NCBI RefSeq assembly: GCF_963921235.1
Contig: NC_086097.1
Span: forward strand, 152,336,001 to 152,400,000
DNA: 64,000 nt
Reading direction: 5' to 3'
Origin: Mobula hypostoma
Taxonomy: Eukaryota
In this document: one piece after another, positions 3,708-64,000 of the stretch
How positions within the stretch are numbered: position 1 is the first letter of the stretch
How the letters are laid out: each line of letters starts with the position of its first letter
The notes under the pieces: generated by a model
Seen by the model: the letters and a program-made list of their open reading frames with translations, nothing else
The model's database searches: none
Told to the model about the DNA's origin: nothing
Position numbers and translations under genes: made by a program

Positions 3708-6039
3708 TTCCTTGCTCTCTCTTTTAAAGTACTATGGGACCTTTCATATTTGCTCAAGAAAATTAATATATTGCTTTAACAGCTCATTCAAATGCTTTCA
3801 AATAACTTGGTATCATCAGGTAGCAGTGACATTGATCCACTTGCTGTCAAATGGATGTCGGGATAAAATGTAAAAAAACAAATTTCCAATGTGACATCCT
3901 CGGGAATAACAATTTGGAGAAGGAAATTGTACAGAGAATATTGTTTTAATTCAAAAAGGGAGAAATAATGTTGAGAATTTAGAGAAACAATAAAGAGCTA
4001 CCTTCACATTGTGGTATTTATAACAACATTGATACTTAACTTGGTTATGAAACTCTTGCTTCTAGGATTAACTTTATCTCAGAAATGAACGAGCTTTCTA
4101 TTTTAGTTGGGCATAAAAACTACTACTTTGCACTGTTTTACTGATTCCCTGACAAATAGTTGTCTTTCAAATAACCCTCTAACATTTCAAAAATTTAGAC
4201 ACTTCATTACTATCTCCTAATATATGAATTGTGCATATGCTTCATTGCAATGGATAAAGCCTTACTCTTACAAACTAGCTCCTGTATAAGCTAGTGATGA
4301 TCCTACTGCTCAGCTCAGGCTTTATTGACTGTGAAGGGCTTCGAGATTCTTGAGATGGAATAGAGAAATCTGTAAATGTAAGTTGCTCCTTCAGTCATCC
4401 AATGAAAACACTATTGGAACCCTACCATGATGTAATGTTCTTAATAAGATATCATACTGGTAGAATATTACTCAAGAAATTACTGGCAAGTTAAAGTAGG
4501 AGATAAATTTGATAAGAGCACATTAAAGGTTTATGATGAAAACATCACCAACAGTGTCTTAAAGTCCATTCAGCTTGATCCCCTGTTGTTTTTGCTCTTT
4601 GTGAATTTTCTAAAGAGAGGCTATTCTTCACGCACTTACTAGATTAGATATTTATGCAGTGAGTTGACATTCACTGAATAAACATGAGCGATACTGTTTT
4701 ACTAGGACAGGATGGCTGCTTATTGAATAATTAATGTGCCTCGAATAGTGTGTATTTTATAGTGCTGGATATAACACTCCTATCTTTTCTCTACTCCTGC
4801 AATGTTCCTTTTCTAACTGCCTTTATTTCCTATGTAAAATATTTGCACCATTTCAACTACGTTCAGATCAAATGCCAAATCACTGGTCCAAATAAGTAGC
4901 TTATCAAACATCGGTTGAAATGAGGTCAAGGAAATATTATGTTTTTATGGGATCATAGAAGATCAGACATGTCTACAAAAGCATAATGTACATGATTAAA
5001 GTAAATCTTTTGACAAATTTTAATTAGTTCATAGGTGCTATTCACAGAAACAAATAAGAATGCAGCTATCAACACACGTGCTTTATTGAAGATAGAAACT
5101 CAACTAATATCAGTTTCTGTTAGAACAGCATTTTGAAACTCATATCAACTGGTTCTGAATTCCACTTCCAGTCACACACATTGAAGTTACCCTTGAACTT
5201 GTATCATACTGCTGTTGAGCGAATGTAGTCATTGGAGAAAAATAATGATAGGTATAAAGCAGCCTCTTTATTTAATAAAAGAAGACACAGCAGGCAACAT
5301 ATTGAGACCCTTTCTGGAAAAGGGCTGATTGAATCTGTACTACACGACATTTTATGTGCTAAAGATCAAAGAACTTTCAAGACAATTCAAACAAATCCAT
5401 ATTTACAATGCCATCTTTAAACTACACGTGACAATTTCAAAAGCCTGGATCTTCCAAATATCACACCCAAAGTAAGTGTGAATTATTGGTGTATCCAGTA
5501 ATGGGGTGTTGATTGGATTTATGCATATGTAGACAATCAGTTAAGTGTCTGTTTCCTGGTCTGTCATCTTCAATGCATATCTGAATCTAAAGGCTTGTGG
5601 CTGAAATTGGTTAAATTAATTGCTACATGTGCTAACTTCAAAACTCGCTCATACCACAGGACCTTTCCTTGCATCAATTAAATCATCGTGTCTAATTTCT
5701 TATGCAAAAACAGCAATATTCCCAGGAGAAAACATAAGAAAAAAGGAGCACTAAAAAGAAGCAAAACTTAAGTAATTATTGAAATATAGTGTAGAGATGA
5801 TCCATCAGGGATGATAATGATTATGTATGAACATGTGCCTGTGAGATCTCTGTTAACTTAGCTTTGGAAAAATCTATTAATTAACTCCACTCCTTCCGTC
5901 TCTCTCCCAAATTTAGAAATCCTGATTGACCTCCCTTCCTTATCCCCAGTCATGGCACTAATCTTCCCAGTTCCCCGAACTAGTCCACAAAGTTCATTTG
6001 AAGCACAAGACACAGAGATGGACCAGTAAGAGAGAGTCT

Positions 6040-6865
6040 CACAGATGTTCCATTCCCATAGTGACATGTCTGTCCTTGCCTCCTCTACTGAAAAATTGAG
6101 GTTAAATGCAGATCAGAGGAACAGCGCCTCATCCAATCTAGTGGTATGAACATTAAATTCTCTAACTTTTGGTAACAACTCCCCTTCTGCTCTATTCTCT
6201 TTTCCCTTTTCTCTCTCCTCTTGATCTATCTGGACCTCTGTACCACTGTACACACTCAATGTTTTAGGAACAGCTTCTTCCCCTCTACCATCAGATTTCT
6301 GAATGGTCCATGAACCCATGAGTACTATTTCACTATTTTGCTCTCTTTTGGCACTGCATAATTTTTTTTACATATTTTTGTAACTTATGGTAATTGTTTT
6401 AATACTTTTGCACTAAACTACTGCCACAAAGCAACCACTTTCACAACTTAAGTCAGTGATAATAAACCTGATTCTGATTCTGACCTGGTTCTCATCACCC
6501 TATCTGTTTCCTATCCTTCACCCTCTCCATCAGTCCATTACCCACATGGTCCTCCCACAGTTTCCATCCTTTTAGCCCATGCTCCACCTTCCTCTCCTAG
6601 CAGATTCCATCATCTACAGCCGTCTGTCATTCCTACCTATTTCCTCCCAGTTTTTGACATCATTCCCACTCTTCCCCTCCCCCGATCACCATCTATCTAT
6701 CACCCCCTTCACCTGGATCCAATTATCACCTGCTAGCATTTGTTCTTCTCTTTCCCACCATCTTCACATACTGGCTGTCACCCTTTCGTCTTTCAGTCCC
6801 AATTAAAGATCTTGAACCAAAATATCAACTGTCAATTTCCCTCCATACATGCTGCCTGACCCTGG
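6040..6865 (+). mobile_element. Penelope-like element family A (Neptune-like): GIY-YIG C-terminus and pseudo-LTR, interrupted
   Basis: ttccattcccatagtgacatgtctgtccttg...atgaacattaaattctctaactt encodes an SHSDMSVL...MNIKFSNF-like motif, as in the copies at 22.5, 22.9 and 59.7 kb. It is followed by a pyrimidine-rich UTR and an eroded hammerhead remnant at about 6795-6831. Confidence 0.7.
6250..6483 (+). mobile_element. Rex1/Babar LINE 3' end inserted in the Penelope fragment
   Basis: ttttaggaacagcttcttcccctctaccatcagatttctgaat encodes FRNSFFPSTIRFLN, the Rex1-type C-terminus. Tail aataaacctgattctgattctga. Confidence 0.8.
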
Positions 6866-6870
6866 GAGAT

Positions 6871-7212
6871 GTCACGGTACACATCGGGACCAATGACGTA
6901 GGGAGAAAGAGTGAGAAGATCCTGAAGAGTGAGTATAGAGAGCTAGGTAGGAATTTAAAAAGCAGGACCTCGAGGGTGGTAACCTCAGGATTTCTACCTG
7001 TGCCACGTGCCAGTGAGAGAAAGAATAGGATGCTCTGGCGGATGAACAAGTGGCTGAGGAACTGGTGTAGGGGGCAGGGTTTCAGATTTCAGGATCATTG
7101 GGACCTCTTCTGGGGCAGGTGGGACCTGTACAAGAGAGATGGGTTTTACCTGAACTACAAGGGGACCAATATCCTTGCAGGGAGGTTTGTTAGTGCTTTA
7201 GGGAGGGTTTAA
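6871..7212 (+). pseudogene. CR1 ORF1 C-terminal SGNH/GDSL-type esterase remnant
   Basis: Reads VHIGTNDVG...VVTSGFLPVPRASERKNRMLWRMNKWLRNWCRGQGFRFQDHWDLFWGRWDLYKRDGFYLN. GxND and DGxxL blocks are typical of the CR1 ORF1 esterase; the catalytic His position reads Tyr. Confidence 0.8.
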
Positions 7213-7339
7213 ACTAGATTTGCAGGGGGATGGGAACCAAAGTGCCAGAGCAGATAGCAGAGCGGGGCTGAAAGTAAATGATGTTAAAAGTTCATGCAAA
7301 GTCACAAATAGAAAGGTTGTGTGTGGTGGTAATAATCTT

Positions 7340-10108
7340 CTGAGGTGTGTCTATTTCAATGCAAGGAGTATTGTAGGGAAGGCTGACGAGCTCAGGGCGT
7401 GGATTGACACATAGTATTACGGGATTATAGCCATTAATGAAACTTGGCTACAGGAGGGGCAGGACAGGTTCTGATGTTTCAGATGAGATAGAGGCAGAGG
7501 AACAAAGGGTGGGGGTTGGCAACACTAGTCAGGGAAAACGTTACAGCAGTGCTCAGGCAGGACAGATTAGAGGGCTTGTCTATCGAGGCCATATTGGTGG
7601 AGCTGATAAACAGGAAAGGTATGACCACATTAATGGGGTTGTATTATAGACCGCCCAATAGTCAGCGAGAATTGGAGGAGCAAATCTGCAGAGAGGTAGC
7701 AGGAAACATAAAGTCGTGATAGTAGGAGATTTTAATTTTCCACATATTGAGTGGGACTCCCATACCGTTGAAGGTCTAGATGGGTTAGAGTTTGTAAAAT
7801 GTGTTCAGGAGAGTTTTCTAAATCAGTATATAGAGGTACCAACTAGAGAGGATGCAATCTTAGATCTCCTATTAGGAAACGAGTTAGGACAGGTGATGGA
7901 AGTGTGTGTAGGGGAGCACTTTGGTTCCAGTGATCATAACACCATTTGTTTCAACTTGATCATGGATTAAGATAGATCTGGTCCTCGGGTTGAGGTTCTA
8001 AACTGGAAAAAAGCCAACTTTGAAGAAATGAGAAAGGATCTAAAAAGCGTGGATTGGGACAGGTTGTTTTCTGGCAAGGATGTGATTGGTAAATGGGAGG
8101 CCTTCAAAGGAGAAATTTTGAGAGTGCAGAATTTGTATGCTCCTGTCAGGATTAAAGGCAAAGTGAGAAAGAATCTTGGTTCTCAAGGGATATTGGAACT
8201 CTGATAAACAAGAAGAGAGAGTTGTATGACATGTATAGGAAACGGAGCAAATATGGTGCCTGAGGAGTATAAAAAGTGCAAAAAATATTTAAGAAAGAAA
8301 TCAGGAGGGCTAAAAGAAGACATGAGGTTGCTTTGGCAGTCAAGGTGAAGGATAATCCAAAGAGCTTCTACAGGTATATTAAGAACAAAAGGATAGTAAA
8401 GGATAAAATTGATCTTCTTGAAGATCAGAGTGGTCGGCTATGTATGGAACCAAAAGAAATGGTGGAGATCTTAAATGGGTTTTTTGCATCTGTATTTACT
8501 AAGGAAACTGGCATGGAGTCAATGGAAATAAGGCAAACAAGTAGTGAGGTCATGGAACCTATACAGATTGAGGAGGAGGAGGTGCTTGCTATCTTGAGGC
8601 AAATCAGAGTAGATAAATCCCCAGGACCTGACAGGGTATTACCTTGGACCTTGAAGGAGACTAGTGCTCAAATTGCAGGGGCCCTGGCGGATATATTTAA
8701 AATGTCGGTATCTACAGGTGAAGTGCCGGAGGATTGGAGGATAGCTCATGTTGTTCCATTGTTTAAAAAAGGCTCTAGAAGTAATTCGGGAAATTATAGG
8801 CCGGTAGGTTTGACGTCGGTAGTAGGAAAATTATTCGAAGGAGTACTAAGAGATAGGATCTACAAGTATTTGGATAGACAGGGACTTATTAGGGAGAGTC
8901 AACATGGCTTTGTGCATGGTAAGTCATGTTTAACAAATTTATTAGAGTTTTTCGAGGAGATTACCAGGAACATGGATGAATGGAAGGCAGTGGATGTTGT
9001 CTACATGGACTTCAGTAAGGCCATTGATAAGATCCCGCATGGGAGGTTAGTTAGGAAAATTCAGTCGCTAGGTATAAATGGAGAAGTAGTAAATTGGATT
9101 AGACATTGGCTCAATGGAGGAAGCCAGCATGTGGTAGTGGAGGATTGCTTCTCTGAGTGGAGGCCTGTGACTAGTGGTGTGTCACAGGGATCAGTGCTGG
9201 GTCCATTGTTATTTTTCATCTATATCAATGATATAGATGATAATGTGATAAATTGGATCAGCAAATTTGCTGATGATACAAAGATTGGAGGTGTAGTGGA
9301 CAGTGAGGAAGGATTTCAAAGCTTGTAGGGGGAATTGGACCAGCTGGAAAAATGGGCTGAAAAATTGCAGATGGAGTTTAATACAGACAAGTGTGAGGTA
9401 TTGCACTTTGGAAGGACAAACCAAGGTAGAACATATAGGGTTAATGGTAAGGCACTGAGGAGTGCAGCAGAACAGAGGGATCTGGGAATACAGATACAAA
9501 ATTCTCTAAAAGTGGTGTCACAGGTAGATAAGGTTGTAAAGAGAGCTTTTGGTACATTGGCTTTTATTAATCGAAGTATTGAGTATAAGAGTTGAAATGT
9601 TATGGTGAGGTTGTATAAGGCATTGGTGAGGCCAGATTTGGAGTATTGTGTGCACTTTTGGTCACCCAAATACAGGAAGGATATAAATAAGGTTGGAAGA
9701 GTGCAGAGAAGGTTTACAAGGATGTTGCCAGGACTTGAGAAACTCAGTTACAGAGAAAGGTTGAATAGGTTAGGACTTTATTCCCTGGAGCGTAGAAGAA
9801 TGAGGGGAGATTTGATAGAGGTATATAAAATTATGATGGGTATAGATAGAGTAAATGTAAGCAGGCTTTTTCCGCTGAAGCTAGGGGAGGGAAAAAACAG
9901 AGGACATGGGTTAAGGGTGAAGGGGGAAAAGTTTAAAGGGAACATTGGGGGGAGCTTCTTCACACAGAGAGTGGTGGGAATGTGGAATGAGCTGCCAGAT
10001 GAAGTGGTAAATGCGAGCTCCCTTTTAACACTTAAGAAGAACTTGGACAGGTACATGGATGAGAGGTGTATGGAAGGATATGGTCCAGATGCAGGTCAGT
10101 GGGACTAG
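7340..10108 (+). pseudogene. CR1 ORF2: apurinic-like endonuclease plus reverse transcriptase, disrupted
   Basis: APE motifs CVYFNARSI, ETWL, YYRPPN, VGDFNFP, LDLLL and SSDHN. RT motifs YRPVGLTS, YMDFSKA, QGSVLGP and KFADDTK. Stops at about 7412, 7968, 9326 and 9593, plus several frameshifts. Confidence 0.93.
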
Positions 10109-22087: not shown

Positions 22088-22835
22088 CACACAAAATGCA
22101 GAGGAACTCAACAGGCTAGGTAGTGCCTATGGAAAAGAGTAAACAGTCAACATTTCATGCTGAGACCCTTCGTCAGGACTGGAAAAAAATGATGAGAAGT
22201 TAGAGCAAGAAGGTGGTGGGAGTGGAGGAAGAAGTACAAGGTGGTAGGTGATAGGTGAATCCGGGAGAGATGGAGAGGTGAAATAAAGAACTGGGAAGCT
22301 GATTGGTGAAAGAGATAAGGGGCCAGAGAAAGAGGAATCTGATAGGAGAGGATAAAAGACCATGGAAGAAAAGGAAAGAGGAGGAGCACCAGGAGGAAGT
22401 GATGGGCTAGTAAGTAGATAAGGTGAGAGGGCAAACAGGAATGGGGGCATGGTGAAAGGTGTAGGTGGCAATTACCGGGAGTTTGAGAAATCGATGTTCA
22501 TGCCATTAGGTTGGAGGCTACTCAGACAGAATATAAGGTGTTGCTCCTCCACCCTGAGTATGGCCTCATCATGGCAGTAGAGGAGGCCATAGACTCATAT
22601 GTTGGAATGGGAATGGAAAGTAGAATTGAAATGAGTGGCCGGCAGGAGATCTCTCATTTGCTGGCAGATGGAATATAGATGCTTGGCTAGGTGGCCTTCC
22701 AATCTACGTCTTGTCTCACTGTTATACAGGAGGCCACATGAGCACCAGATACAGTGGGTGGCCTTAACAGAGTCAGAAGCTTCACCGGAAAGGACGGTTC
22801 GGGGCCCTGAATGGTTGTTAGGGAGGAGGTGTAGG
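22088..22835 (-). mobile_element. Penelope-like family A (Neptune-like) 3' fragment: GIY-YIG plus pseudo-LTR
   Basis: ORF 22595-22861 reads HCIWCSCGLLYNSETRRRLEGHLAKHLYSI..LLPATHFNSTFHSHS, a degenerate GIY-YIG. Hammerhead motif at 22144-22181. Confidence 0.88.
22144..22181 (-). ncRNA. Minimal type I hammerhead ribozyme motif (stem II damaged)
   Basis: Minus strand: cagtc CTGACGA agggtctcagcat GAAA TG TT gactg. Confidence 0.6.
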
Positions 22836-26349: not shown

Positions 26350-29300
26350 AATTTTGATCTTGACCTAGGTGTCATCTACATACCTGAACCATTGACTGTG
26401 TGATGCTCCATGGAGGTTGTTCACGACTGTCCTTTCTACTTCTTCCATGTATAAGTAGCTGTAATAGGAGATACCAGTGAACCCATGGACGCAACCGTCT
26501 TTCTGCCTGTAGAAGGCATCTTTCTTTTTGAAATAGGTAGCGTTGAGACAAAGGTTGAGTAGAGTATGACAACACCCATCAGCTACTTGCAATGTTGGGC
26601 CATCCATCTGACATCTTTACCCCAGCATCTGCACAACAGTGCATACCTTCGTTCATGCAAAGATAAGTCTAATCACCCTCCCCTTATTATCTCTACAATC
26701 CTTAATGACCCTCATGTGATTGCTATACCTTCAAACAACACACAAAGTTTGTAAGCCAGAAAGCTACCCACTGTGGATCAGAAGTGAAGAAGTCTCTCGG
26801 ATGTGTGGCAAACCATCTTCCAGACAGCACAGCAAGTCCAGTTGCCTTGATTTACTACTGCTTGATATATAATGACCTGGATGACTGAGCATCTTCATAG
26901 ACATATCAGGTTGGAGGAGCAGCATCTTATATTCCACCTGGTCTGACAGCATGTACCTTGATCTCTCAAACTTCACCATTCACAATTCACCATTCACCAA
27001 TTCCTGTTTCCCACTCTCACCTTATCTGCTTACTTGCCCATCACCTCCCCCTGGTGCTCCTCCCCCTTCTCTTTCTTCTATGGTCTTCTATCTTGTCTTA
27101 TCAGATTCCCTCTTCTCTAGCCCTCTCACCAATCAATTTCCTAGTTCCTTATTTCACCCATCCCCCCATCTTCATGCTCTAACTTTTTCTTCAGTCATGA
27201 TGAAGTCTTGGCCTGAAATGTTGACTGTTAATTCTTTTTCATAAGTGCTGCCTGGCCTGCTGAGCTCCTCTAGTATCTTTTGTGCATGTTGCTTAGATTT
27301 ATTGTCTTTGTTGTATCAATATGTTTTTTTTTGGTTTCCTAATCAATTCCATTGATTTAATGTAATGATGAAACGTAATTGGTATTGTTGCTTATTCACA
27401 TTCCTGATCTGCAGCAGGTATGAAATTACACCCTGGAGCATAATTATTTATTTTCAAGAAAAAAATTGAAAGACAACTTTTTTTTGATAAAACAGCAAAG
27501 TAAATGAGCCAAAGAATACACAGAATGTACAACATTGAAACAGACAGTGTGATGCAAGTATCTCTATACTGAAGTCTATATTCTAAAGGAGGCTCCATCC
27601 ATTTTGTTTGCCTTAACTAAGAAAGACTTCTGGTAATTCTTTCTAGAAGTACAATCAACTACTTGAAACTTCACAGCTGTGTTGGTATTTGGTAAGGTTG
27701 TGATTGACCTTCTACCTGAGTGACAATACCCTATATTAACTCCATGTTCCTTGATGCTATGAATATCCAAAAATCTATCAATCGTCATAACTATGCTCAG
27801 TGACTAAACTTCCAGAGCCTGCTTTGATAGAGAATTACAAAGAGTCACTATCTTCTGTGTCCGCAATTTCTTTTCACCTCTGTCTGGAGTGCTGGCCTCT
27901 TATGTTGAAGCTGCAAAGTCTGGTTCTACATCTCTCAGCCAGGGGAAAAGCAAGCCTGTATTAAAGCTGAGAATTCCTTTTGCCTCCCTCTTTCCTTTTC
28001 TTAGAGTTATAGAGTCATAGAGAAAAAACAACACAGCTACAGGACCTTTGGCCCATTTGGTCTGCGCTGAACCATTTAAACTGCCTAATCCCATCAATAT
28101 ATACTTGAACCATAACCCACCAGACCCCTGCCATCCATGTACCTTTAGAAACTTATTTTAAACATTGCAATTGAGCTTGCATGTATCATTTGCACTGGCA
28201 GCACATTTCACAGTCTTCTGACCTGCTGAGTGAAGAAGTTTCCCCTCATGTTCCCCTTAAACTTTTCACCTTTCACCCTTAACTCATGACCTCTAGTTGT
28301 AGTACCACCCAACCTCAGTGGAAAAAGTCTGCTTGCATTTAGCCTCCCTATACCCCTCATGATTCTGTATATCTCTATCAAATCTCCCTTCAATCTTCTA
28401 CATTCCAAGGAATAAAGTCCCGACATATCTTTCCTTATAACTCAAGTCCTCCTGTCCCAGAAAAATCCTTGTAAATTTTCTCTGTACTCTTTCAACCTTA
28501 TTTACATCTTTCCTGTAGGTATATAACCAAAACTGCACACAGTACTCCAAATAAGGCCTCATCAATGTCTTATCCAAGTTCAACATGCCCCCTGTCCTGT
28601 CCAGAAGACATAACGCCAAAAGCTATCTTTACGACTCTGTCGAACTGTGCCGTCACTTTCAATAATTATGGACCTGTATTCCCAGATCCCTTTGTTCCAA
28701 CGCACTCCTCAGTGCCCTACTGTTCAATGTGCAAGACCTACTCTGGCTGGTCCCTCTGAAGTGCAACACCTCACACTTGTCCATATTCAATTCCATTTGT
28801 CATTTTTCACCTGTTTTTTCCATCTGGTCCAGATCTGGCTGCAAGCTCTGATAGTCTTCCATGCAGTCCACTACACCCCCAATATTGGTATCATCCACAA
28901 ATTTGCTGACCCAGTTAACCACATTATCATTCAGATCATTGTTGACAAACAACAACAGATTCAGCACCAGTCCCAGTGGCACTTCACTAGTCACAGGCCT
29001 CCAGTCAGAGAGGCAAGCATCTACTACTACTCTCTAGCTTCTCCCACAATGCAATGTCTAATCCAATTTTACTACTTCATCTGGAATGCAAAGTGACTGA
29101 ACCTTCTTGACCAAGCTGCCATGCAGGACGTTGTTAAATGCCTTGATAAATTCTATGTGAACACCATTTATTGCCTTGCCTTCATCACATTTCCTGGTAA
29201 CTTCTTTGAAAATCTCTATAAGATTAGTTAGACATGACCTTCCATGCACCAAGTCATGTTGACTATCCCTAATCAGTCCATACCTATCCAAATACTCATA

Positions 29301-31591: not shown

Positions 31592-31750
31592 GCACACACA
31601 AAATGCAGTGGAAACTCAGTAGATCAGAAAGGATCTATGGAGGGATAAGACCAATCAATGTTTTGGGCTGAGACCCTTCATCAGGACTGGAAAGAAGAAG
31701 GCAGAAGCCAGAACAAAAAGGAAGGATGAAGGAAAGGGGGCACAAGCACA
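31592..31750 (-). mobile_element. Penelope family A pseudo-LTR fragment with decayed hammerhead
   Basis: Minus strand 31651-31690: ccagtc CTGATGA agggtctcagccc AAAA CA TT gattgg (G12>A). Confidence 0.7.
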
Positions 31751-33718
31751 CAAGTAACTGGAAAAGCTTTAAGATAGTCATGAGAAGAATGAAAGAAACA
31801 CAAAATATTTTGTATGAAGAGCTGTTGAGAAATGTCTTAGTAATAACCAAAAATGAAACAGACTCTTAAACTAAGAATTAAAAGAGGAATGAACGAATGT
31901 TATGGAAAATTATCCTCCTGATTCTGGGGGAGCAGGTGGGTGATTTCAGACTACATGTATTTAATGAGAAAGAAGAAATGAGACATATGGTAATCTAGAA
32001 TTAAAAGCTAGCATGTTTATGTATGCATATTCCTTTGTGATAGGGATTGTAACATTGTGACATTTGGAAATATGGGCAACAATGTTTTTAATAAAATTTT
32101 CTGCAGAACAAAACAGCAGTATAGTTTGACAAGACCTGAAATATCAATGAAAGCAAAAGGGCAGTATCTATACTTGAAAGAGAGAGTAGCCTTTGTGCTC
32201 AAGAAGAAATTCTGTTAATTTTTGCATGGATTCTCCAAATGGTATTTTATAATCTAGTCATTGTTTCCCTGAACCCTGGAAGAATAACAATAATTATACT
32301 TGAGTTGTTTCCTCCAGTGTTTATATGAATCCTCACCAAAGATAGATGATGGAGTAAATACCTCTAACATTAAATGTCAAGTTGCCCTTATGAACTCTAA
32401 AATGATTAGTTGTCACTGGGATCTGAGTATCACTTAAAAGGCTGTGTTTATTATCCATAGGCTTGTATATTCAATTGGAGCCTTGATAAGGCAAGATCTG
32501 ACAAAGATATTGCTCATCTTCAATTAACAATATTTGTATATAGAAACCTACTACATATCACTTTTTAAGTATCAGTTCTTGCAATACATGATCATAACTG
32601 TTATAGCTAATATAAATTTTACAAAACACAACAGTTTCACCAATTAAGTACTCAATTCTCTTCTTGCCCCATACCCATGCAAAATTAGGTTCAAGGTAAA
32701 TCTTATTATCAGAGTACAGGTATGCCACCATATACAACACTGAGATTCACTTTCTTGTAAGCATCCTCAATAAATCTATAGAATAATAACCAAAACAGAA
32801 AGAATGAAAGGCCACCCAACCAGAGCATTCAACCACAGTGCAGAAGGCAACAGAATATGAAAATACAAAAAGAAAGAATAATAATAAGTAAGCAATAAAC
32901 ATGAGATGAAGTGTCCTTGAAAATAAGTCCACTGGTTGTGGGAACATTTCAATGATGGGCGTGAAGTTGAATGAAGTTATCCCCTCTGGCTCAAGAGCCT
33001 GATGGTTGAGGGTTAGTAACCGTTCTTGAACCTGGTGGTGTGAGTCCTGAGGCTCCTCTACCACCTTCCTGATGGCAGCAGTGAGAAGACAGCATATCCT
33101 AGGTGGTGCAGATCCCTGATAATGGATGCTGATTTGCTGCAACAGCGTTTCATGGTGACGTGATCACTGGTTGGGAGAGCTTTACTCATGATGGACTGGA
33201 CCATTTCCACTGGTTTTTGTATGACTTTCAGTTCAAGGACATTGGTGATTCCATACCAGGTCATGATGTATCCAGTCAACATACTCTCCACTACCCAGCT
33301 ATTGAAGTTTGTCAAAGATTTAGATGTTATGCTGAATCTCTGAAAACTTCAAAGGAAGTAGAGCTGCTGTTGTGTCTTCTTCATAATTGCACTTGTGTAT
33401 TAGGCCCGGGAGAGTTCCTCCAAAATAATAACACGAAGGAATATAAAGTTGCTAACCCTCTCCACCTCTGATCCTCTGAGGACTGGCTCATGGATCTCTG
33501 ATTTCATTCTTCTGAAGTCTATAATCAGCCCTTTGGTCTTGCTGACATTGAGCAAGAGATTGCTGTTATTGCAGCATTCAGCCAGGTTTTCAATTTCCTT
33601 CCTATATGCTGATTCAACACCACCTTTGACTCAGCCTATATCAGTGGTGTTGACCGCAAACTTGAAAATGGCATTGGAGCTGTGTAAAGGGAGTACAACA
33701 GGAATCTAAACACACAGC

Positions 33719-33835
33719 AACACACATCAAAGTTGCTGGTGAACGCAGCAGGCCAGGCAGCATCTGTAGGAAGAGGTGCAGTCGACGTTTCAGGCCGAGA
33801 CCCTTCGTCAGGACTGCAGAATTCCTGTTGTTTGC
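33719..33835 (-). mobile_element. 117-nt young Penelope family A pseudo-LTR insertion with an inverted end piece
   Basis: 15-bp TSD atctaaacacacagc (33704-33718 and 33836-33850). Nearly identical to 59079-59175. 33814-33835 is the reverse complement of the element terminus seen at 59041-59061. Confidence 0.93.
33777..33818 (-). ncRNA. Intact minimal type I hammerhead ribozyme (dimer-requiring Penelope type)
   Basis: Minus strand: tgcagtc CTGACGA agg gtctcgg cct GAAA CG TC^ gactgca. 7-bp stem I, full core, and a loopless palindromic ACGU stem III. Confidence 0.85.
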
Positions 33836-36724
33836 ATCTAAACACACAGCTTTGTGGTGCACCTGTACTGATGAAGATCATGGAGGAGATGTTGCTAATT
33901 ACAGTTGACTGGGGTCTGCAAGTGAGGAAATTAAGGATCCAATTGTACAAGGAGGTATTGAGGTCAATTAGTTTCGAGGGGATGATGGTATTGAATGCTG
34001 AACTATCGTCGATAAAGAGCATCCTGATGTATGCATCTTTGCTGTCCGGATGTTCCAGATGTTCCAGATGGCATCTGCTGTGGACCTGTTGTCCGGAAGG
34101 CAAACTGAACTGGATATAAGCTGCTTCTCAGGCAGCAGTTGATGTGTTTCAATACCAGCCTACCATAACACTTCATCACTGTGAATGTAAGTGCTACTGG
34201 ACAATAGTCATTGAGGCAGGTCACTCTTCTTGTGCATGCTTGAAGCAGGTCAGTATCATACACTGCTGTAGTGAGTAGTTAAAGATCTCAGTGAACATTC
34301 CAGCCAGTTGATCAGCACAGGTCTTTAGTACTTCGCCAGATACTCAGTCTGGGCCTTATGCTTTTTGTGGGTTCACCCTCCTGAAGGCTGTTCAAACATT
34401 GGCTTCAGAGACTGAAATCAGAGGATCATCGGGGTATGTGGGAGTTCATGATCGTTCCTCAATGTCTTGAGACAAAGTGAGCATAAAGTGAATTCTCATC
34501 TGTAAGTGAAGCCCTGCTGTCTCCTACTGTTGCTTGATTTCACTTGATAAAGAGCTGATAGTATTCAAGCCCTGCCACAACTACTGAGCATCATTTGTAG
34601 GTTCAGCTTTGGTTTGAGATTGCCACTTCACTCATGAAATTGTTTCTGGTGATTGCACCTGGACCTCTTGTAACTTTCCTAGTTACCAGACTTGAATGCT
34701 TCTGATGTGGCTCTCAGCAGATTTCAGATATCATGGTTCATCTACGGCTTCTGTTTGGGGAAGACTGGGTGATTTTGTGGGACCACACTCGACTACAGTT
34801 GGCTTAAAAGTCCATTACAACCATGGCGTATTCATTCACGTCTATAGATGAGTCCTTGAACACAATCCAGTCCACTGACTGAAAATGGCCCCCATAGCCT
34901 CTCCTCTGCCTCTTGCAACCACCATTTTGTTGTCCTTAGCTCTGGAGCTTTGGTCTTTAGTCTCTGCCTGTATACAAGTAGGAGAAGGACAACTAAATGA
35001 TCAGATTTGCTGAATTGTGTCGGGGCATGGAACAGTAGGCATTTCTTGTCTTAGTATAGTAGTGGTTTAGTGTGTTGGGACCTCTGGTGCCATACGTTAT
35101 AAGCGGATGGTAATTGGGCAGGGTTTGCTTCAAAGAAGTCTGGTTTGAACACTTTTATAAAGGAAAGTTGGAGAGTTAATAGCGGTGTGGGAGGCTGTGC
35201 GGAGCTAGTGGAATTTAGATTATCTCCTTTCATCTTCTGCTTTTGTCCATCTACTGAAGGCAAGGACCGTTCCTCAAGCTGTGCATTGTGGTTTACATCA
35301 TGATGGCAGGTTTGCATTTTGAAACCTGGGGCACAGGATGCTCCTTCTGGTCCGTCTCCAGACACCCCTTTCACAATCCATTGAAGAATCCATTGAAACT
35401 TTTTTTTTGAAGCATGGCGCATGTCTTTGCTGAAATTTTCTCTCCAAACACAAGTTATAATATTATGAAAGAATTGGAATTGCTTTCAAATATTTGTGCA
35501 TGAACTTTTAAAAAACTTTTCAAATAAATTGCTTATTGATTGCAATACTTTGTTCAGCTTTTGCTGTTTGAATAAACTGATGTGATGAAACATTTGGTAA
35601 ACAGATCAAAGAAGATTCATTGTGGACAGGCTTACAGTGGCAATAACCAACTATTCTCTGGCCTGCCCGTCCTCCTGCAAATGAAGTAATAAGTGGAAGA
35701 AATATTGTTTGTGGAGATAAAGGGCTAAAATTATGTCTTGAATTTAGAAAACAACTCTACACTAGGGGGGAAATTGGTTTCATCCAGCATCACAGGACGG
35801 TTATTTTTGTTTGCAAACAATGTACAGGAAATCTTGTGTTTATGCAATGTGATGGTCCTGGCTTTAGCTTATTTATTCACAATTTCAGGAGTCACAAGAG
35901 GTTTATGAAGATGCATGTATAATGCCCTGTTGTGGCAGGAGATTCTGGAGCACTGATTCTCCAAGTGAAGTGGTCTCATCCCTGTGGATCAACTCATTAT
36001 GAATGGCAAACTGTGCTTCCCTAAAGAAGATTAGTTTATTAGAGTGGTGAATATAGACAGTTGGAGCAAAACATTGACTATTCCATACCAACGAATGCCA
36101 GACATGAAAAGTGTTCAAAGATCTGGACTTTCTGAGAGGTATCCACATGCACTTTTTTCTGATGGACTCCTAACAAATGTTCATTTAAGAAACACTCCAA
36201 TGGATCTGCTTCCTTTTTAAACCTGCACACCTGGTTTAGGCAAAAACTGATTCCCAAATGTGGCTATTGCATCTTCAGTGACTGAATAATGATAGATTTT
36301 TTTTACTGTTCTTGCATACTGACATTATGGTAGCAACCCAATTTTCCATAATGCATAGTGTGCAAGAAAGCTTCTGTTGAATAGCCTTAGTTTGCACTGT
36401 GTCAGTCATACAGCTGACATGTACCAACGTATTGAAATACTGCGTCAATTACTTTTATGGCTTCTATCTATCACTATAGCAATTAATGTTATCAGAGATC
36501 ATTTATAGATAAATGGGTAAGTGGCCCCGTGGTGAAACTTAAACTAGGTGCAGGCCTCAATTGCTTAAAGATCCACCTCGGCGGTTGCTAATTCAGTCTT
36601 TTGTGACTATGTTTGAAGAGGTAACTGAGAATGTATGAAACTATTATTTCATTATCAAAGTGTTGATGATTCAAACAAAGAGAATGTCTATGTCTGCCAA
36701 GTTATCGAAGTTATGAGGTGTTAA

Positions 36725-49147: not shown

Positions 49148-50640
49148 ACGAGACCCTTCATTGAGATTTGCTGATGAGGGGTCTCGGCCTGAAGCCTCTG
49201 CATAGATGATGCCTGACCTGCTGAGTTCCATTCTGTGGTCAGGTTCAGATGATCATCAGCAGAGATCTCATTGTGTTCACTTTCAGTTGCTCATATCAAG
49301 CCATACCTGAGCAAGAACCATTCTCTAAATAGTTCACAAAATGATGGCTGCAAGAACAGTCTCACAAAATGACAGCCTCCATTCCTTCAACCTCATGGAA
49401 AGAACAAAGACATTTGGTTTGTCTGCTTCTACTGCTCTTGGCTCATTCTAGTTTCAACAGCTAGGATTTCCCAATGGCCAGCTATTTTAATTCCATTTCC
49501 TATTCCCACATGGTATGTCTTTCCAAAGCATCCGCTACTGCCAAAATGAGGCCAGATGCAGATTGGAGGAGCAGCACTTCATATTACATCTTGGTGGTTC
49601 CTTCCTATTCTGTCTCTAGTAAAAATGCTATTCCATTTTCTCAGTTCCTTCATCTCTGCCACATCTGTTCCCAGGATGAGGCCTTCCTTTCCTAGACATC
49701 GGAGGTGCCCCCCCCCTTCTTCAAAGAACAGGGTTTCTCTTCCTTCCCTCTTCTTCTATTCCCCATTCTGGCTTCTTACCTCTTCTCACCTGTATATCAC
49801 CTCTTCCTGGTCTCCCTCCTCCTTCATTTTTTCCTGTGATCCACTGTCCTATCAGAATCCTTCATCTGCAGCCCTTTATCTTTCCCACCCACCTGGCTTC
49901 GTCTATCACCTTCTAACAATCCTTCCTCCCCTCTCACCCCTCCCACACATTTATCCGTCAACTTCCCCCTTCCTTTCCTATCCTGAAGGGTCTCAGCTCT
50001 AATCGTCAACTATTTATTCATTTCCAAGGATCCTGCCTGACCTGCTGAGTTTCTCCAGCATTTTGTGTGTGTTGCTTTGGACTTCCATCATCTGTTGACT
50101 TATTGTGTTTATGATTAGTATCGATGTCTCTAATTCCAGTAACCACTCCCCACTACTCATCTGTTTTGTTTCCCTTATCTTAATGGCCCCTTTACTCATT
50201 CTCTTTCCCCTTTCCTGCCCTCAAAGTCTGTCCATCACCTTCGCCTTCCTTCCTCTATTCCCTACCTACTTCCCTTATTCCATGATCCTCTGCTTTCAGA
50301 TTCCTTCTGCAGCTGTTTGCTTTTTCCACCATCAATTCCCAGCTTCTCTCATTATTACCTTTTACACTCTCCCTCACCTACCTGCCTTCCCCCCCTCACC
50401 TGAATTCACCTGTCACCTTCCAGCTTATGCTTCTCCTCTTCCTCCCCTTTAATTCTGGCTTTGACTTTCTCCTTTCCAGTCCTGATCAACATTCCCATTC
50501 TGAATCATTGTGTGTTCATTTCCCTCTGTAGATGCTGAATGACCCTCAGTGTGGTAGTAGCGGAGGCCTTGGATGGACATGTTCTTCAACATAGTGTGTT
50601 TTCTCCCGATTTCCGGCATCTACAATTTCTCTCGTGTCTC
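49148..50640 (+). mobile_element. Cluster of Penelope family A fragments
   Basis: DFPMASYFNSISYSH..(LEEQHFILHLG) at 49465-49594. Pyrimidine-rich UTRs. Eroded hammerhead remnants near 49171-49193, 49981-50012 and 50477. Termini ctgcctgacctgctgagtt. Confidence 0.72.
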
Positions 50641-59033: not shown

Positions 59034-59552
59034 ACAACAACAAACAACAGGAACTCTGCAGATGCTGGAAATTCAAGCAACACACATCAAAGTTGCTGGT
59101 GAACGCAGCAGGCCAGGCAGCACCTATAGGAAGAGGCGCAGTCGACATTTCAGGCCGAGACCCTTCGTCAGGACTAACTGAAGGAAGAGTGAGTAAGGGA
59201 TTTGAAAGCTGGAGGGGGAGGGGGAGATGCAAAATGATAGGAGAAGACAGGAGGGGGAGGGATAGAGCCGAGAGCTGGACAGGTGATAGGCAGAAGGGGA
59301 TACGAGAGGATCATGGGACAGGAGGTCCGGGAAGAAAGACGGGGGGGGGGGGTGACCCAGAGGATGGGCAAGAGGTATATTCAGAGGGACAGAGGGAGAA
59401 AAAGGAGAGTGAGAGAAAGAATGTGTGCATAAAAAAGAGTAACAGATGGGGTACGAGGGGAAGGTGGGGCCTAGCGGAAGTTAGAGAAGTCAATGTTCAT
59501 GCCATCAGGTTGGAGGCTACCCATACGGAATATAAGGTGTTGTTCCTCCAAC
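59034..59552 (-). mobile_element. Young Penelope family A 3' fragment inserted into the older copy
   Basis: 13-bp TSD ctgggtgacgggt (59021-59033 and 59553-59565). Minus strand encodes RLEEQHLIFRMGSLQPDGMNIDFSNFR*. Confidence 0.92.
59139..59176 (-). ncRNA. Minimal type I hammerhead ribozyme, near intact
   Basis: Minus strand: tagtc CTGACGA agg gtctcgg cct GAAA TG TC^ gactg. The stem III palindrome ACGU has become AUGU. Confidence 0.75.
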
Positions 59553-60039
59553 CTGGGTGACGGGTGACAGGGTGAGAAGAAACTGGGTGGGAGTGTTAGA
59601 AAGAAGGGTGCATGGAGGACACCTTGTGTATGCTAGAAGGAGAGAGAATGGAAAAGAAGGGAGGAAAGTTGCTGAAATTGAAAAATTCAAATTTCATGCT
59701 ATTGCGTTGTAAACCACCTAGATGGGATATGAGGTTCTTCTGGTTTGTGTTTGGCCTCACCCAGACAATGGAGGAAGCCGAGGATTGACAGGTTGGTGTG
59801 CAAATGGGATGGAGAATTAATGCAAATTGCAGGTGTGAGTTCCAGCCTACAGATGGCTGTAGCGGAAAGAGCACAGGTGCCCAGCAGAACACGTGCACAA
59901 TGTAGAACACCACACTCAAAAGACAAGGTTGGAAGTGGGCATTTGAAAGTCTGCATCAGCTGGAGGGAGGTGGTGGAGGGGCAGGTATTATAGCCCCCTG
60001 TGGTTGCAAGGGAAACTGCTAAGGGAGGGAAAGGTCTAA

Positions 60040-60235
60040 TCACAAACAAGAGAAAATCTACAGATGATGGAAATCTAAGCTTCACGCACAAAATGATGGA
60101 GCTTGGCAGGCCAGGCAGCATCACTGGAAAAGGGTAAACAGTTAATTTTTCGGCCAAGACCCTTCAGCAGGACACAACAGACCTGCTGAAGGGTTCTCGG
60201 CCCGAAATGTCAAGTGTACCCTTTTCTATAGATTC
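60040..60235. mobile_element. Fold-back pair of Penelope pseudo-LTR ends
   Basis: 60126-60171 and 60182-60227 are imperfect inverted repeats. Each has a hammerhead-like core CTGCTGA...CGAAA. Confidence 0.75.
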
Positions 60236-60238
60236 TAC

Positions 60239-60412
60239 GAGGGGGGGGAGAGAGAGAGGGGGGGAGAGAGAGGGGGGGAGAGGGGGAGAGAGGGGGAGAG
60301 AGGGGGAGAGAGGGGGGGAGGAGGGGGAGAGAGGGGGAGAGAGGGGGAGAGAGGGGAGAGAGGGGGGGGAGAGAGGGGGGGGGAGAGAGGGGGAGGGAGG
60401 GGGGGGGGGGAG

Positions 60413-60444
<32 letters not shown>

Positions 60445-60537
60445 AGAGAGGGGGGGAGGAGGGAGGGAGGGGGGGAGGGGGGGAGGGGGGGAGAGGGGGG
60501 AGGGGGGGGGGGGGGGGGGGAGGGGGGGGGGGGGGGG

Positions 60538-60571
<34 letters not shown>

Positions 60572-63500
60572 GGGGGGAGAGGGGGGGGGGGGAGGGGGGG
60601 GAGAGGGGGGGAGGGGGAGAGGGGGGGGGGAGGGAGGGAGAGGGGGGAGGGGGGGGGGGGGAGGGGGAGGGGGGGGGGGGAGGGAGGGGGGGGAGAGAGG
60701 GGGGGAGGGGGGGGGGGGGGGGGGGAGAGGGGGGGAGGGGGGAGGGGGGGGGGGGGGGGAGGGGGGAGAGAGGGAGGGAGAGAGGGGGAGGGAGGGGGGG
60801 GAGGGGGGGGGAGAGAGGGGGAGGAGGGGGGAGAGGGGGGGGAGAGAGGGGGGGGAGAGAGGGGAGGGAGAGGGGGGGGGAGGGGGGGAGGGGGAGAGAG
60901 GGAGGGGGGGGGAGGGAGAGGGGGAGGGGGGGGGGGAGGGAGGGGGGAGAGGGGGAGGGGAGAGGGGGGGGGAGGGGGGGAGAGAGGGGGGGGGAGGAGG
61001 GGGGGGGGGGGGAGGAGGGGGAGGGAGGGGGGGGGAGAGAGGGGGGAGAGGAGGGAGGGGGGGGAGGGGGGGAGAGAGGGGGGAGAGAGGGGGAGAGGGG
61101 GGAGAGAGGAGGGAGAGAGGGGGAGGGAGAGGGGGAGAGGGGGGGAGAGGGGGAGAGAGGGGGGGAGAGAGAGGGAGGGAGGGGGAGAGGGAGGGGGGAG
61201 GGGGGAGGGGGGAGGGGGGGAGAGAGGGGGGGGAGGGGGGGGGGGGGGGGGAGGGGGGGGGGGGGGGGAGAGGGGGGGAGGGGGGAGGGGGGGGGGGGGG
61301 GGGGGAGGGAGGGGGGGGGGAGGGGGGAGAGGGGGGGGAGAGGGGGGAGAGGGGGGAGAGGAGGGGAGAGAGGGGGGAGAGGGGGGAGGGAGGGGGGGGG
61401 AGGGGGGAGAGAGGGGGGAGGGGAGGGGGGGAGAGGGGGGAGGAGGGGAGGGGGGAGGGAGGGAGAGAGAGGGGGGGAGAGAGAGGGGGGAGGGAGGGGG
61501 GGGAGAGGAGGGGGGAGGGGGGGGGGGGGGGAGGGGGGGAGAGGAGGGGGGGGGGGAGGGAGGGGGAGAGAGGAGGGAGGAGGGAGGGGGGGGGGAGGGG
61601 GGGGAGAGAGAGGGGGAGAGAGAGGGGGGGGGAGAGAGAGGGGGAGAGGGGGAGAGAGAGGGGGAGAGAGAGGGGGAGAGAGAGGGGGGGAGAGAGAGGG
61701 GGAGAGAGAGGGGGGAGAGAGGGGGAGAGAGAGGGGGGGGAGAGAGGGGGGAGAGAGGGGGAGAGAGGGGGGGGGAGAGAGGGGGGAGAGAGGGGGGAGA
61801 GAGAGGGGGGAGAGAGGGGAGAGAGAGAGAGGGGGAGAAGGAGGGAGGGGGAGAGAGGGAGGGGGGAGAGGGGGGGAGGGAGAGAGGGAGGGGAGAGAGA
61901 GGGGGGGGAGAGAGGGGGAGAGGGGGGAGGAGGGGGAGAGAGGGGGGGGGAGGGGAGAGAGGGGGAGGGGGAGGGAGGGGAGGAGAGAGGGGGAGAGAGG
62001 GGGAGAGAGGGGGAGAGAGGGGAGAGAGGGGAGAGAGGGGAGAGAGGGGAGAGGGAGAGAGGGGGGGAGGGAGAGAGGGGGAGGGGGGGAGAGGGGGGAG
62101 AGGGGGGGAGAGGGAGAGGGGGAGAGGGAGGGGGGGAGAGGGAGGGGGGAGAGGGAGGGGGGAGGGAGGGGGAGAGGAGGGAGGGAGAGGAGGGGGGAGA
62201 GAGAGGGGGGAGGAGGGAGGGGGAGAGAGAGGGGGGAGAGAGGAGGGGGGGAGAGGGGGGGGAGAGAGGGGGGAGAGAGAGGGGGGAGAGAGGGGGAGAG
62301 AGGGAGGGGGGGAGAGAGGGGGGGAGAGAGAGGGGGAGAGAGAGGGGGGGGGGAGGGGGGGAGAGAGAGAGGGGGGAGAGAGAGGGGGAGAGAGAGGGGG
62401 AGAGAGAGGGGGAGAGAGGGGGGGAGAGGGGGGGGAGAGGGGGGAGAGAGGGGAGAGGGGGGGGAGAGGGGGGGGAGGGGGGAGAGGGGGAGAGGGGGGA
62501 GGGGGGGAGAGGGGGGAGGGGGGGGAGAGGGGGGGGGGGGGAGGGGAGGGGGGGAGAGGGGGGAGAGAGGGGAGAGAGGGGGAGAGAGGGGGGAGAGAGG
62601 GGGGGGAGGGGGGAGAGAGAGGGGGGGGGAGAGGGGAGGGAGGGGGGAGAGGAGGGAGAGGGGGGGGAGGGGGAGAGGGGGGAGAGGGGGGAGGGGGAGG
62701 GAGAGGAGGGAGAGAGGGGGGAGAGAGGGAGAGAGAGGGGGGGGAGAGGGGGGAGAGAGAGGGGGGAGAGAGAGGGGGAGGGAGAGGGGGAGAGAGGGGG
62801 AGAGAGGGGGGGGAGAGAGGGAGGGGGAGAGAGGGAGGGAGAGAGGAGGGAGAGAGGGAGGGGAGGGAGAGAGGAGGGGGAGAGAGGAGGGAGAGAGAGG
62901 GGGGGAGAGGAGGGGGGAGAGAGGGGGAGAGAGGGGGGAGAGGGGGAGAGAGGGGAGAGAGGGGAGAGAGGGGGGAGAGAGAGGGGGAGAGAGGGGGAGA
63001 GAGGAGGGAGAGAGGGGGAGAGAGAGGGGGAGAGAGGGGGAGAGGGGGGAGAGGGGGGAGAGGGGGGGAGGGGGAGAGGGGGGGAGAGGGGGGAGAGGGA
63101 GGGAGAGGGGGGGGGAGAGGGGGGAGAGGGGGAGAGAGGGGGGGGGAGAGGGGGGGGGAGAGGGGGAGAGAGGGGAGAGAGGGAGAGAGGGGGAGGGGGG
63201 AGGGGGGAGAGAGGGAGGAGGGGGGGGAGAGGGGGGGGGGGGAGGGGGGGGGGGGAGGGGGAGGGGGGAGAGGGGGGAGAGGGGGGGGGGGAGAGGGGGG
63301 GAGAGGGGAGGGGGGAGGGGGGAGAGAGGGGGGAGAGGGGGGGAGAGGGGGGGGGAGAGGGGGAGGAGGGAGAGAGGGGGAGAGAGGGGGAGAGAGGGGG
63401 GGAGGAGAGGGGAGGGAGGGAGGAGGGGAGGGGAGAGAGGGGGGGAGAGAGGGGGAGAGAGAGGAGGGAGAGAGGGGGGGAGGGAGGGGGAGAGGGGGGG

Positions 63501-64000
63501 AGAGAGGGGGGAGGAGGGGGGGAGAGAGGGGGGGAGAGAGGGGGGAGAGAGGGGGGAGAGGGGGGGGGAGAGAGGGGGGAGAGAGAGGGGGGAGAGAGGG
63601 AGGGGGAGAGGGAGGGGGGAGAGAGGGGGGAGAGAGAGGGGGGGAGAGAGAGAGAGAGGGGGAGAGAGGGGGGAGAGAGGGGGGGAGAGAGGGGGAGAGA
63701 GGGGGGAGAGAGGGGGAGAGAGGGAGAGAGGGGGGAGAGAGGGGGAGGAGAGGGGGGAGGGAGGGGGAGAGGGGGGAGAGGGGGGAGAGAGAGGGGGGGA
63801 GAGAGGGGGGAGAGAGGAGGGGAGAGAGGGGGGAGGGGGGGAGGAGGGGGGGAGAGGGGGGGGAGGGGGGGAGAGAGGGGGGGGAGAGAGGGGGGGGGAG
63901 AGAGGGGGGGGGGAGAGGGGGGGAGAGAGGGGGGGAGAGAGGGAGAGAGAGAGGGGGAGGGAGAGGGGGGAGAGGGAGGGGAGAGAGAGGAGGGAGAGAG
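60239..64000 (+). repeat. Purine-only G/A low-complexity tract, at least 3.76 kb, open at the window end
   Basis: No C or T seen by eye from 60239 onward. Irregular G-runs are separated by A, AGA or AGAGA. Confidence 0.97.

What the first reader, a model, noticed from the sequence alone, without database searches (positions are those of the whole stretch)
33777..33818. Intact minimal hammerhead ribozyme carried by a 117-nt Penelope insertion
Seen: the minus strand reads tgcagtc-CUGACGA-agg gucucgg ccu-GAAA-CG-UC^-gacugca. All core nucleotides are present, with a GUC cleavage triplet (cut predicted between 33784 and 33783) and a loopless ACGU stem III. Established: Penelope-like elements carry such minimal type I hammerheads, which fold poorly as monomers and cleave as dimers through the palindromic stem III. 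Inference: this is the best-preserved copy here and could cleave any minus-strand transcript through this locus if a partner copy is available.
Basis: partly seen in the sequence, partly recalled or inferred. Interest (0 to 1): 0.75.

Follow-up and report, generated by a model that had tools for sequence, protein, structure and literature searches.

The report
Ordinary Penelope hammerhead in twin-primed stub
This is a real minimal hammerhead-ribozyme motif, but it is one of tens of thousands of identical copies spread by a known kind of jumping gene (Penelope-like), here in a 117-base stub that was likely built from two separately primed DNA copies, and nothing shows that this copy is transcribed or cuts.

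Summary
The motif is there as described (minus strand 33777-33818, predicted cut 33784/33783), inside a 117-nt insert between 15-nt target duplications. It belongs to a Neptune/Nematis-type Penelope-like element (RT plus GIY-YIG ORF in longer copies). It is not special: 32,886 exact copies of the 36-nt core lie in this genome. The family's stem I is 4-5 bp; the outer 3 bp here come from a junction with an inverted piece of the element's own tail. The active dimer fold is predicted about 10 kcal/mol worse than an inactive hairpin; I found no host gene, transcript or compensatory covariation. By-products: each of 100 two-armed insertions has exactly one arm starting at the tail end, which fits twin priming on one RNA; arm ends pile up at the first base of stem I (about 10%), not at the cut site (about 1.6%). 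Penelope hammerheads, inverted arms and tails are published, and this scan reported the twin-priming reading before on other DNA (74 notes, at least 16 genomes). Verdict: new member of a known kind.

The parts
33704..33718 (+). Left copy of the 15-nt target-site duplication; its last 3 nt also match the element (priming microhomology)
33719..33815 (-). Arm B: 3' pLTR piece of the Penelope-like element without the tail (reference positions 39-135), ending at the first base of hammerhead stem I
   Evidence: 96% identical over 96 nt to window 59080-59175
33780..33815 (-). Family-encoded minimal type I hammerhead: 4-bp stem I, CUGACGA, unpaired A, 4-bp stem II, GAAA, palindromic ACGU, predicted cut between 33784 and 33783
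   Evidence: 32,886 exact genomic copies
33777..33818 (-). The 42-nt motif as reported; the outer 3 bp of stem I are a junction product
   Evidence: 42 exact copies; contexts
33814..33835 (+). Arm A: inverted copy of the element's 3'-terminal tail (reference positions about 21 to 0), joined to arm B over a 2-nt overlap
   Evidence: 20 of 21 nt match window 59041-59061 on the opposite strand
33836..33850 (+). Right copy of the target-site duplication
33852..34079 (-). Decayed older LINE (RT-like reading frame) into which the stub inserted; both flanks match copies elsewhere at 67-83% identity
   Evidence: naming it a LINE RT motif is recalled knowledge
59041..59555 (-). Second, longer copy of the same family (tail, hammerhead with a C-to-T change in ACGU, 3' UTR, ORF end); used as the numbering reference

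Best explanation
The motif is the family-encoded minimal hammerhead of a very abundant Penelope-like retroelement, carried passively in a short, likely inert insertion that was likely made by twin priming on one element RNA. Shown: the insert is two head-to-head pieces of the element's 3' end between 15-nt duplications; one starts at the internal start site and runs through the ribozyme to the first base of stem I, the other starts at the tail end and is about 22 nt long. Inferred: the GIY-YIG endonuclease cuts both target strands about 15 nt apart; each 3' end primes reverse transcription on the same RNA, at two sites about 36 nt apart; the two cDNAs are joined over a 2-nt overlap, which by chance adds 3 bp to stem I. 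Inferred: the template was uncleaved RNA, and the ribozyme would cut only as a dimer, probably with help from the element's protein.
For: Longer copies carry one long ORF with RT and C-terminal GIY-YIG (835 aa in L176, 916 aa open in L173; Pfam RVT_1 E 3e-5 and GIY-YIG E 2e-4 to 8e-4, below the curated cut-offs) with DKG, CX4CxxC and CCHH motifs. 87,132 exact matches to a 25-nt pLTR tag. 3' starts of the first 100 tag matches fall in two groups, 43 at positions 1-9 and 57 at 30-50, as the two RT start sites and tail in PMC11167929. 51 of 95 parsed arms have an inverted partner. Of 100 duplication-flanked two-armed insertions, 89 pair a tail start with an internal start at 26-50, 11 pair a tail start with a start further in, 0 have two tail starts and 0 two internal starts. 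Duplications are 13-15 nt in 29 of 33 strictly parsed cases, with mean priming overlap 1.3-1.4 nt against 0.4-0.6 shuffled. The purified anole enzyme cuts and extends both strands, and ribozyme mutants insert normally (PMC11167929). The corrected break rate at the cut site is 1.55%, within the range of other positions (0.37-1.69%).
Against: No biochemical or RNA test was possible. The cut site is 2-3 times above its neighbours at 102 (0.51%) and 106 (0.75%), so a small cleavage footprint is not excluded. The 2-nt overlap cannot exclude a brief fold-back at stem I for this one copy. One RNA versus two RNAs with fixed roles cannot be told from the start-site rule alone. The anole study saw no strand difference in RT start sites in vitro. 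Denominators for the break rates, except at 135, are scaled from a 100-arm sample.
Confidence: 0.8

Rival explanations
1. This copy works as a ribozyme at its locus: a minus-strand transcript through 33777-33818 pairs with another Penelope-derived RNA through ACGU and swapped stem I strands and is cut.
For: All core residues are intact. Partners would be plentiful (32,886 identical cores). Family sequence is the deepest bin in contigs of 4 public runs guessed to be RNA (family-level signal, organism not shown to be this one). The surrounding old LINE reads on the same strand.
Against: No host exon found. The active dimer is predicted 10.5 kcal/mol worse than two inactive hairpins (non-canonical core pairs not modelled). 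G-U at 10.1-11.1. Published minimal motifs show no monomer and low dimer activity (PMC4209133) or need the element's protein.
Confidence: 0.07
2. The insert arose by fold-back of one cDNA at stem I (snap-back synthesis), followed by a jump to the tail.
For: The junction extends stem I by 3 perfect pairs. Perfect hairpins with the ribozyme core as the loop exist, for example L004, L005, L013, L016.
Against: The second arm holds tail sequence that the first arm lacks, so it cannot be copied from it. The same three letters are supplied by the tail itself. Only 42 exact cases exist among 32,886 cores. The one-tail-arm rule holds in 100 of 100.
Confidence: 0.08
3. The ribozyme cuts element RNA in vivo, and the cut RNA is a regular template, so that many copies end at the cut site.
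For: 571 break signatures at the cut site against 209 at position 102 and 208 at 106. An unreviewed scan note claims this for another genome (e1-8622537).
Against: Positions 101 (about 0.97%) and 121 (1.69%) are similar to the cut site (1.55%), and position 135 is about six times higher. About 22 of 30 cut-site breaks inspected are joins to the inverted partner, many over sequence shared with stem I or stem II; only 5 run into flank (four loci that the script labelled 'other family' are short arms, which I re-sorted by eye).
Confidence: 0.15

Closest known systems
Minimal type I hammerheads of metazoan Penelope-like elements (Cervera and de la Pena 2014, PMC4209133; parts 1-2 of 4 read)
   Same: Core intact, no helix III loop, palindromic 15.2-16.2, short helix I (4-5 bp), extra unpaired base between positions 9 and 10.1, location in the pLTR, mostly scattered single copies, some opposite-strand pairs 100-700 bp apart.
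   Different: G10.1-U11.1 instead of the usual G-C in this subfamily; 4-bp helix II; copies nearly invariant and several times more numerous than the 4,000-9,000 quoted for coelacanth and Xenopus.
Anole Poseidon element PAc (Frangieh et al. 2024, PMC11167929; parts 1-2 of 4 read, supplements searched without hits)
   Same: Two RT start sites bounding a 30-40-nt tail, downstream of the hammerhead; both target strands extended; no sign that cleavage is needed for insertion.
   Different: The ORF here has the CX2-5CxxC linker of Neptune/Nematis, which Penelope/Poseidon lacks. The text that I read does not state the one-tail, one-internal pairing rule or a pile-up of ends at stem I.
EN+ Penelope-like insertions with inverted pLTR, one-sided tail and target duplication (PMC3846280, PMC8557442; passages read)
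   Same: Head-to-head inverted 5'-truncated copy, tail at only one end, short duplication.
   Different: This copy is an extreme miniature (97-nt plus 22-nt arms, no ORF). Those papers suggest self-priming or endonuclease resolution rather than twin priming.
Non-LTR retrozymes (bioRxiv 10.64898/2026.07.22.740005; abstract, introduction and start of methods read)
   Same: Type I hammerhead in a short non-coding Penelope-derived unit.
   Different: Retrozymes are tandem arrays with a ribozyme in each unit; this locus is a single ribozyme in an inverted stub.

Membership tests
Minimal type I hammerhead (PLE type) | Core CUGANGA / GAAA / UH in type I order | tested here: met
Minimal type I hammerhead (PLE type) | Helix I of 4-5 bp and helix II closing the core, unpaired base between 9 and 10.1 | tested here: met
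   (helix II 98% paired in 15 copies)
Minimal type I hammerhead (PLE type) | Palindromic, loopless helix III allowing a dimer | tested here: met
   ACGU; dimer fold can be drawn but is not the predicted minimum
Minimal type I hammerhead (PLE type) | G10.1-C11.1 pair (highly conserved, not universal) | tested here: not met
   G-U here; G-C in 8 and G-U in 6 of 14 aligned copies with letters at that pair
Minimal type I hammerhead (PLE type) | Compensatory covariation in helices | tested here: inconclusive
   No two-sided change in the family-encoded pairs among 15 copies; score not above shuffles; copies are young and closely related
Minimal type I hammerhead (PLE type) | Site-specific self-cleavage | not testable with these tools
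   needs an RNA assay
Rfam hammerhead families | Match to a curated covariance model | tested here: not met
   no hammerhead hit at E<=5
EN+ Penelope-like element | Single ORF with RT and C-terminal GIY-YIG, DKG and CCHH motifs, in copies continuous with this pLTR | tested here: met
   (Pfam scores below curated cut-offs; motifs read by eye)
EN+ Penelope-like element | pLTR with optional 30-40-nt tail, tandem and inverted copies, short target duplication | tested here: met
Neptune/Nematis clade | CX2-5CxxC linker between RT and EN | tested here: met
   CX4CxxC in the L176 and L033 ORFs; definition from PMC8557442
Neptune/Nematis clade | Placement in an RT phylogeny | not tested
   no reference sequences fetched
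Non-LTR retrozyme | Tandem repeat with a hammerhead in each unit | tested here: not met
   single motif, inverted arms

The most novel reading that the evidence does not exclude
The genomic copies record the Penelope insertion mechanism: both cut target strands prime on one RNA, always one at the tail end and one further in, and cDNA synthesis has a strong stop exactly at the first base of hammerhead stem I (an initiator-like RNA start, or an RT stop set by the ribozyme's hairpin) rather than at the cut site. The ribozyme would then mark a boundary of the template without cleaving it.
Probability: 0.45. Interest if true: 0.55.

Novelty: new member of a known kind. Interest (0 to 1): 0.25.

Why it matters
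The ribozyme itself matters little: such motifs are known from Penelope-like elements across animals, and this is one of tens of thousands. The family data are more useful. How these elements make inverted ends and one-sided tails, and what their hammerhead does, are open questions in PMC8557442 and PMC11167929. The 100-of-100 start-site rule and the peak of ends at stem I give two predictions that the existing in vitro system can test. The start-site rule was already noted by other agents in this scan.

Tried and rejected
Rfam scan: no hammerhead model matched. My first idea that stem-I hairpins are a major class came from a score-biased search; exact counts showed them to be rare. The idea that the right arm is an inverted copy of target DNA was dropped: the target explains 11 nt, the element tail 21. 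The idea that position 135 is the single RNA 5' end was weakened: of the first 30 of 384 copies spanning the tail-ORF junction, 20 reach position 135, only 2 stop there (aligned end 137) and 8 run beyond 515. A splice-acceptor reading of the same position was dropped because no common upstream exon follows the break in the 60 loci inspected. RNA: no RNA holder listed; contigs of 4 of the 5 runs were laid and cannot show ends or strand. Host gene: 150 of 232 non-repeat ORFs scanned, none host-like; short exons could be missed. One search used a wrong first mismatch letter and so mixes positions 100 and 101; I split it 17:83 by counting the 100 listed rows by eye. A sequence look-up of earlier findings returned nothing. 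Paper searches for twin priming in Penelope-like elements, recent mechanism papers and shark hammerheads listed no paper that, from its title and abstract start, states the start-site rule; subscription papers are not in the library, and supplements of PMC4209133 and of the bioRxiv preprint were not seen.

Full report
Observation. A minimal type I descriptor finds this motif and one other in the window, at 59171, where ACGU has become AUGU. A 15-nt direct repeat at 33704-33718 and 33836-33850 bounds a 117-nt insert. The flanks match an older repeat elsewhere in the genome on both sides and the right flank reads as a decayed RT frame. Rfam gives no hammerhead hit. The 42-mer folds at z = -2.5, but into a hairpin in which GACG of the core pairs with CGUC, which is not the active fold.

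The element. I number positions from window 59041 (position 1 = 3' tail end, read antisense); the cut lies between 103 and 104 and stem I begins at 135. The window is G000:C1:152336001-152400000 of a 3.48-Gb assembly. A 25-nt tag occurs 87,132 times and the exact 36-nt ribozyme 32,886 times. Longer copies run from this sequence into a 3' UTR and an ORF with RT and C-terminal GIY-YIG domains (Pfam matches below curated cut-offs). The ORF has DKG, CCHH and a CX4CxxC linker, which PMC8557442 gives for Neptune/Nematis and not for Penelope/Poseidon; I built no tree. L065 and L116 show the tail running into the ORF start, the usual pLTR-ORF junction; 384 exact junction copies exist. The ribozyme is on the element's sense strand. 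That the host is a cartilaginous fish is my recollection of these repeats and the statement of an unreviewed scan note; I did not test it.

Anatomy of this insert. 33719-33815 is element positions 39-135 on the minus strand. 33814-33835 is the element's own tail on the plus strand, matching 59041-59061 at 20 of 21 nt. The arms overlap by 2 nt. The family's stem I is 4 bp plus a wobble; the three further pairs here come from the first letters of the tail arm. Only 42 exact copies of the 42-mer exist, and the 30 inspected continue in several ways. Stem II is best drawn as an unpaired A and 4 bp with a G-U at 10.1-11.1, in line with the extra base that PMC4209133 describes.

How such inserts form. 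In the first 100 tag matches on contig 1, 3' starts fall at 1-9 (43) or 30-50 (57), as the two RT start sites that bound the tail in the anole element (PMC11167929). 51 of 95 parsed arms have an inverted partner. From 227 loci (L001-L137 and L179-L268; the other 71 were left out) I parsed 100 two-armed insertions with a duplication: 89 have one tail start and one start at 26-50, 11 have one tail start and one further in, none has two of a kind. Some of these loci were chosen by junction patterns, none by start site. In 33 strictly parsed cases the duplication is 13-15 nt in 29, and both priming ends show about 1.3 nt of overlap against about 0.5 shuffled. The purified anole protein cuts and extends both strands. 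I infer twin priming on one RNA. Inverted pLTRs with a one-sided tail are published (PMC3846280; PMC8557442), with other explanations. My searches showed no paper stating this rule, but 74 notes of this scan in at least 16 genomes match the words, and the 8 shown give the same reading. I reached it before that look-up.

Does cleavage leave a mark? I counted copies in which an anchor is followed by three non-element bases: 174 at position 92, 209 at 102, 571 at 103, 208 at 106, 457 at 121, 2,400 at 135, 884 at 136 and 145 at 145; mixes 100 and 101. After correcting for chance matches, for related families (3 of 30 loci at 135) and for anchor abundance (57,715 measured at 135; others scaled from the 100-arm sample), break rates are 0.37, 0.39, 0.97, 0.51, 1.55, 0.75, 1.69, 9.55, 4.19 and 0.85% at 92, 100, 101, 102, 103, 106, 121, 135, 136 and 145. 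The cut site is 2-3 times its nearest neighbours but no higher than 121, and about 22 of 30 inspected breaks there are joins to the partner arm. The clear peak is at the first base of stem I, where this copy also ends; the 95-arm sample agrees (2.4% per base at 131-138 against 0.3-0.9% nearby). That base fits an initiator consensus (recalled), and Drosophila Penelope has an internal pLTR promoter (PMC2377424). But only 2 of 20 junction-spanning copies that reach it stop there, so it is a minor RNA start or an RT stop; I cannot choose between them.

Would this copy cut? The dimeric active fold scores -24.7 kcal/mol against -35.2 for two inactive hairpins and -43.5 for the best co-fold (core contacts not modelled). 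Published minimal motifs cleave weakly as dimers and not as monomers; the anole motif needs the element's protein, and its cleavage is not needed for insertion. I found no host exon and no usable RNA data. Fifteen copies from this genome show no compensatory changes in the family-encoded pairs, which says little for young neutral copies.

Verdict. A real Penelope-type minimal hammerhead, ordinary in kind and copy number, in a miniature inverted insertion. New member of a known kind; interest 0.25. The family-level patterns are worth more than the locus.

Noticed in passing
G000 family-wide; this copy at window 33815: About 10% of arms that reach the first base of hammerhead stem I end there, against 0.4-1.7% at eight other positions tested and 4% at the next base. 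Some show short repeated additions at the end (L257-L261).
   Followed up: partly
G000:C1:147388449-147389128, C2:157816719-157817370, C2:122542758-122543051; L065, L116: Short tandem units of about 260-330 nt made of pLTR, tail and ORF start (spacings; unit seen); they look like nascent retrozyme arrays.
   Followed up: no
L008, L009, L020, L109, L111, L124: Tandem duplication of the 38-nt ribozyme core inside single insertions, which places two hammerheads side by side on one strand.
   Followed up: no
window 22104-22181, 27187-27262, 31652-31689, 49171-49228, 49985-50072, 60106-60236: Older, decayed hammerhead-bearing Penelope-like stubs of related families, including a head-to-head pair at 60106-60236.
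   Followed up: partly
window 33695-33705: The target just upstream of the duplication matches 11 nt of the element's tail; probably chance, not tested across copies.
   Followed up: no
window 60240-64000: About 3.8 kb made almost only of G and A on the plus strand (GC skew near 1); a simple repeat or an assembly artefact.
   Followed up: no
L176:1452-3956 (minus), L173:1736-4483 (minus): Copies with long uninterrupted reading frames (835 and 916 codons), showing that the family is young.
   Followed up: partly
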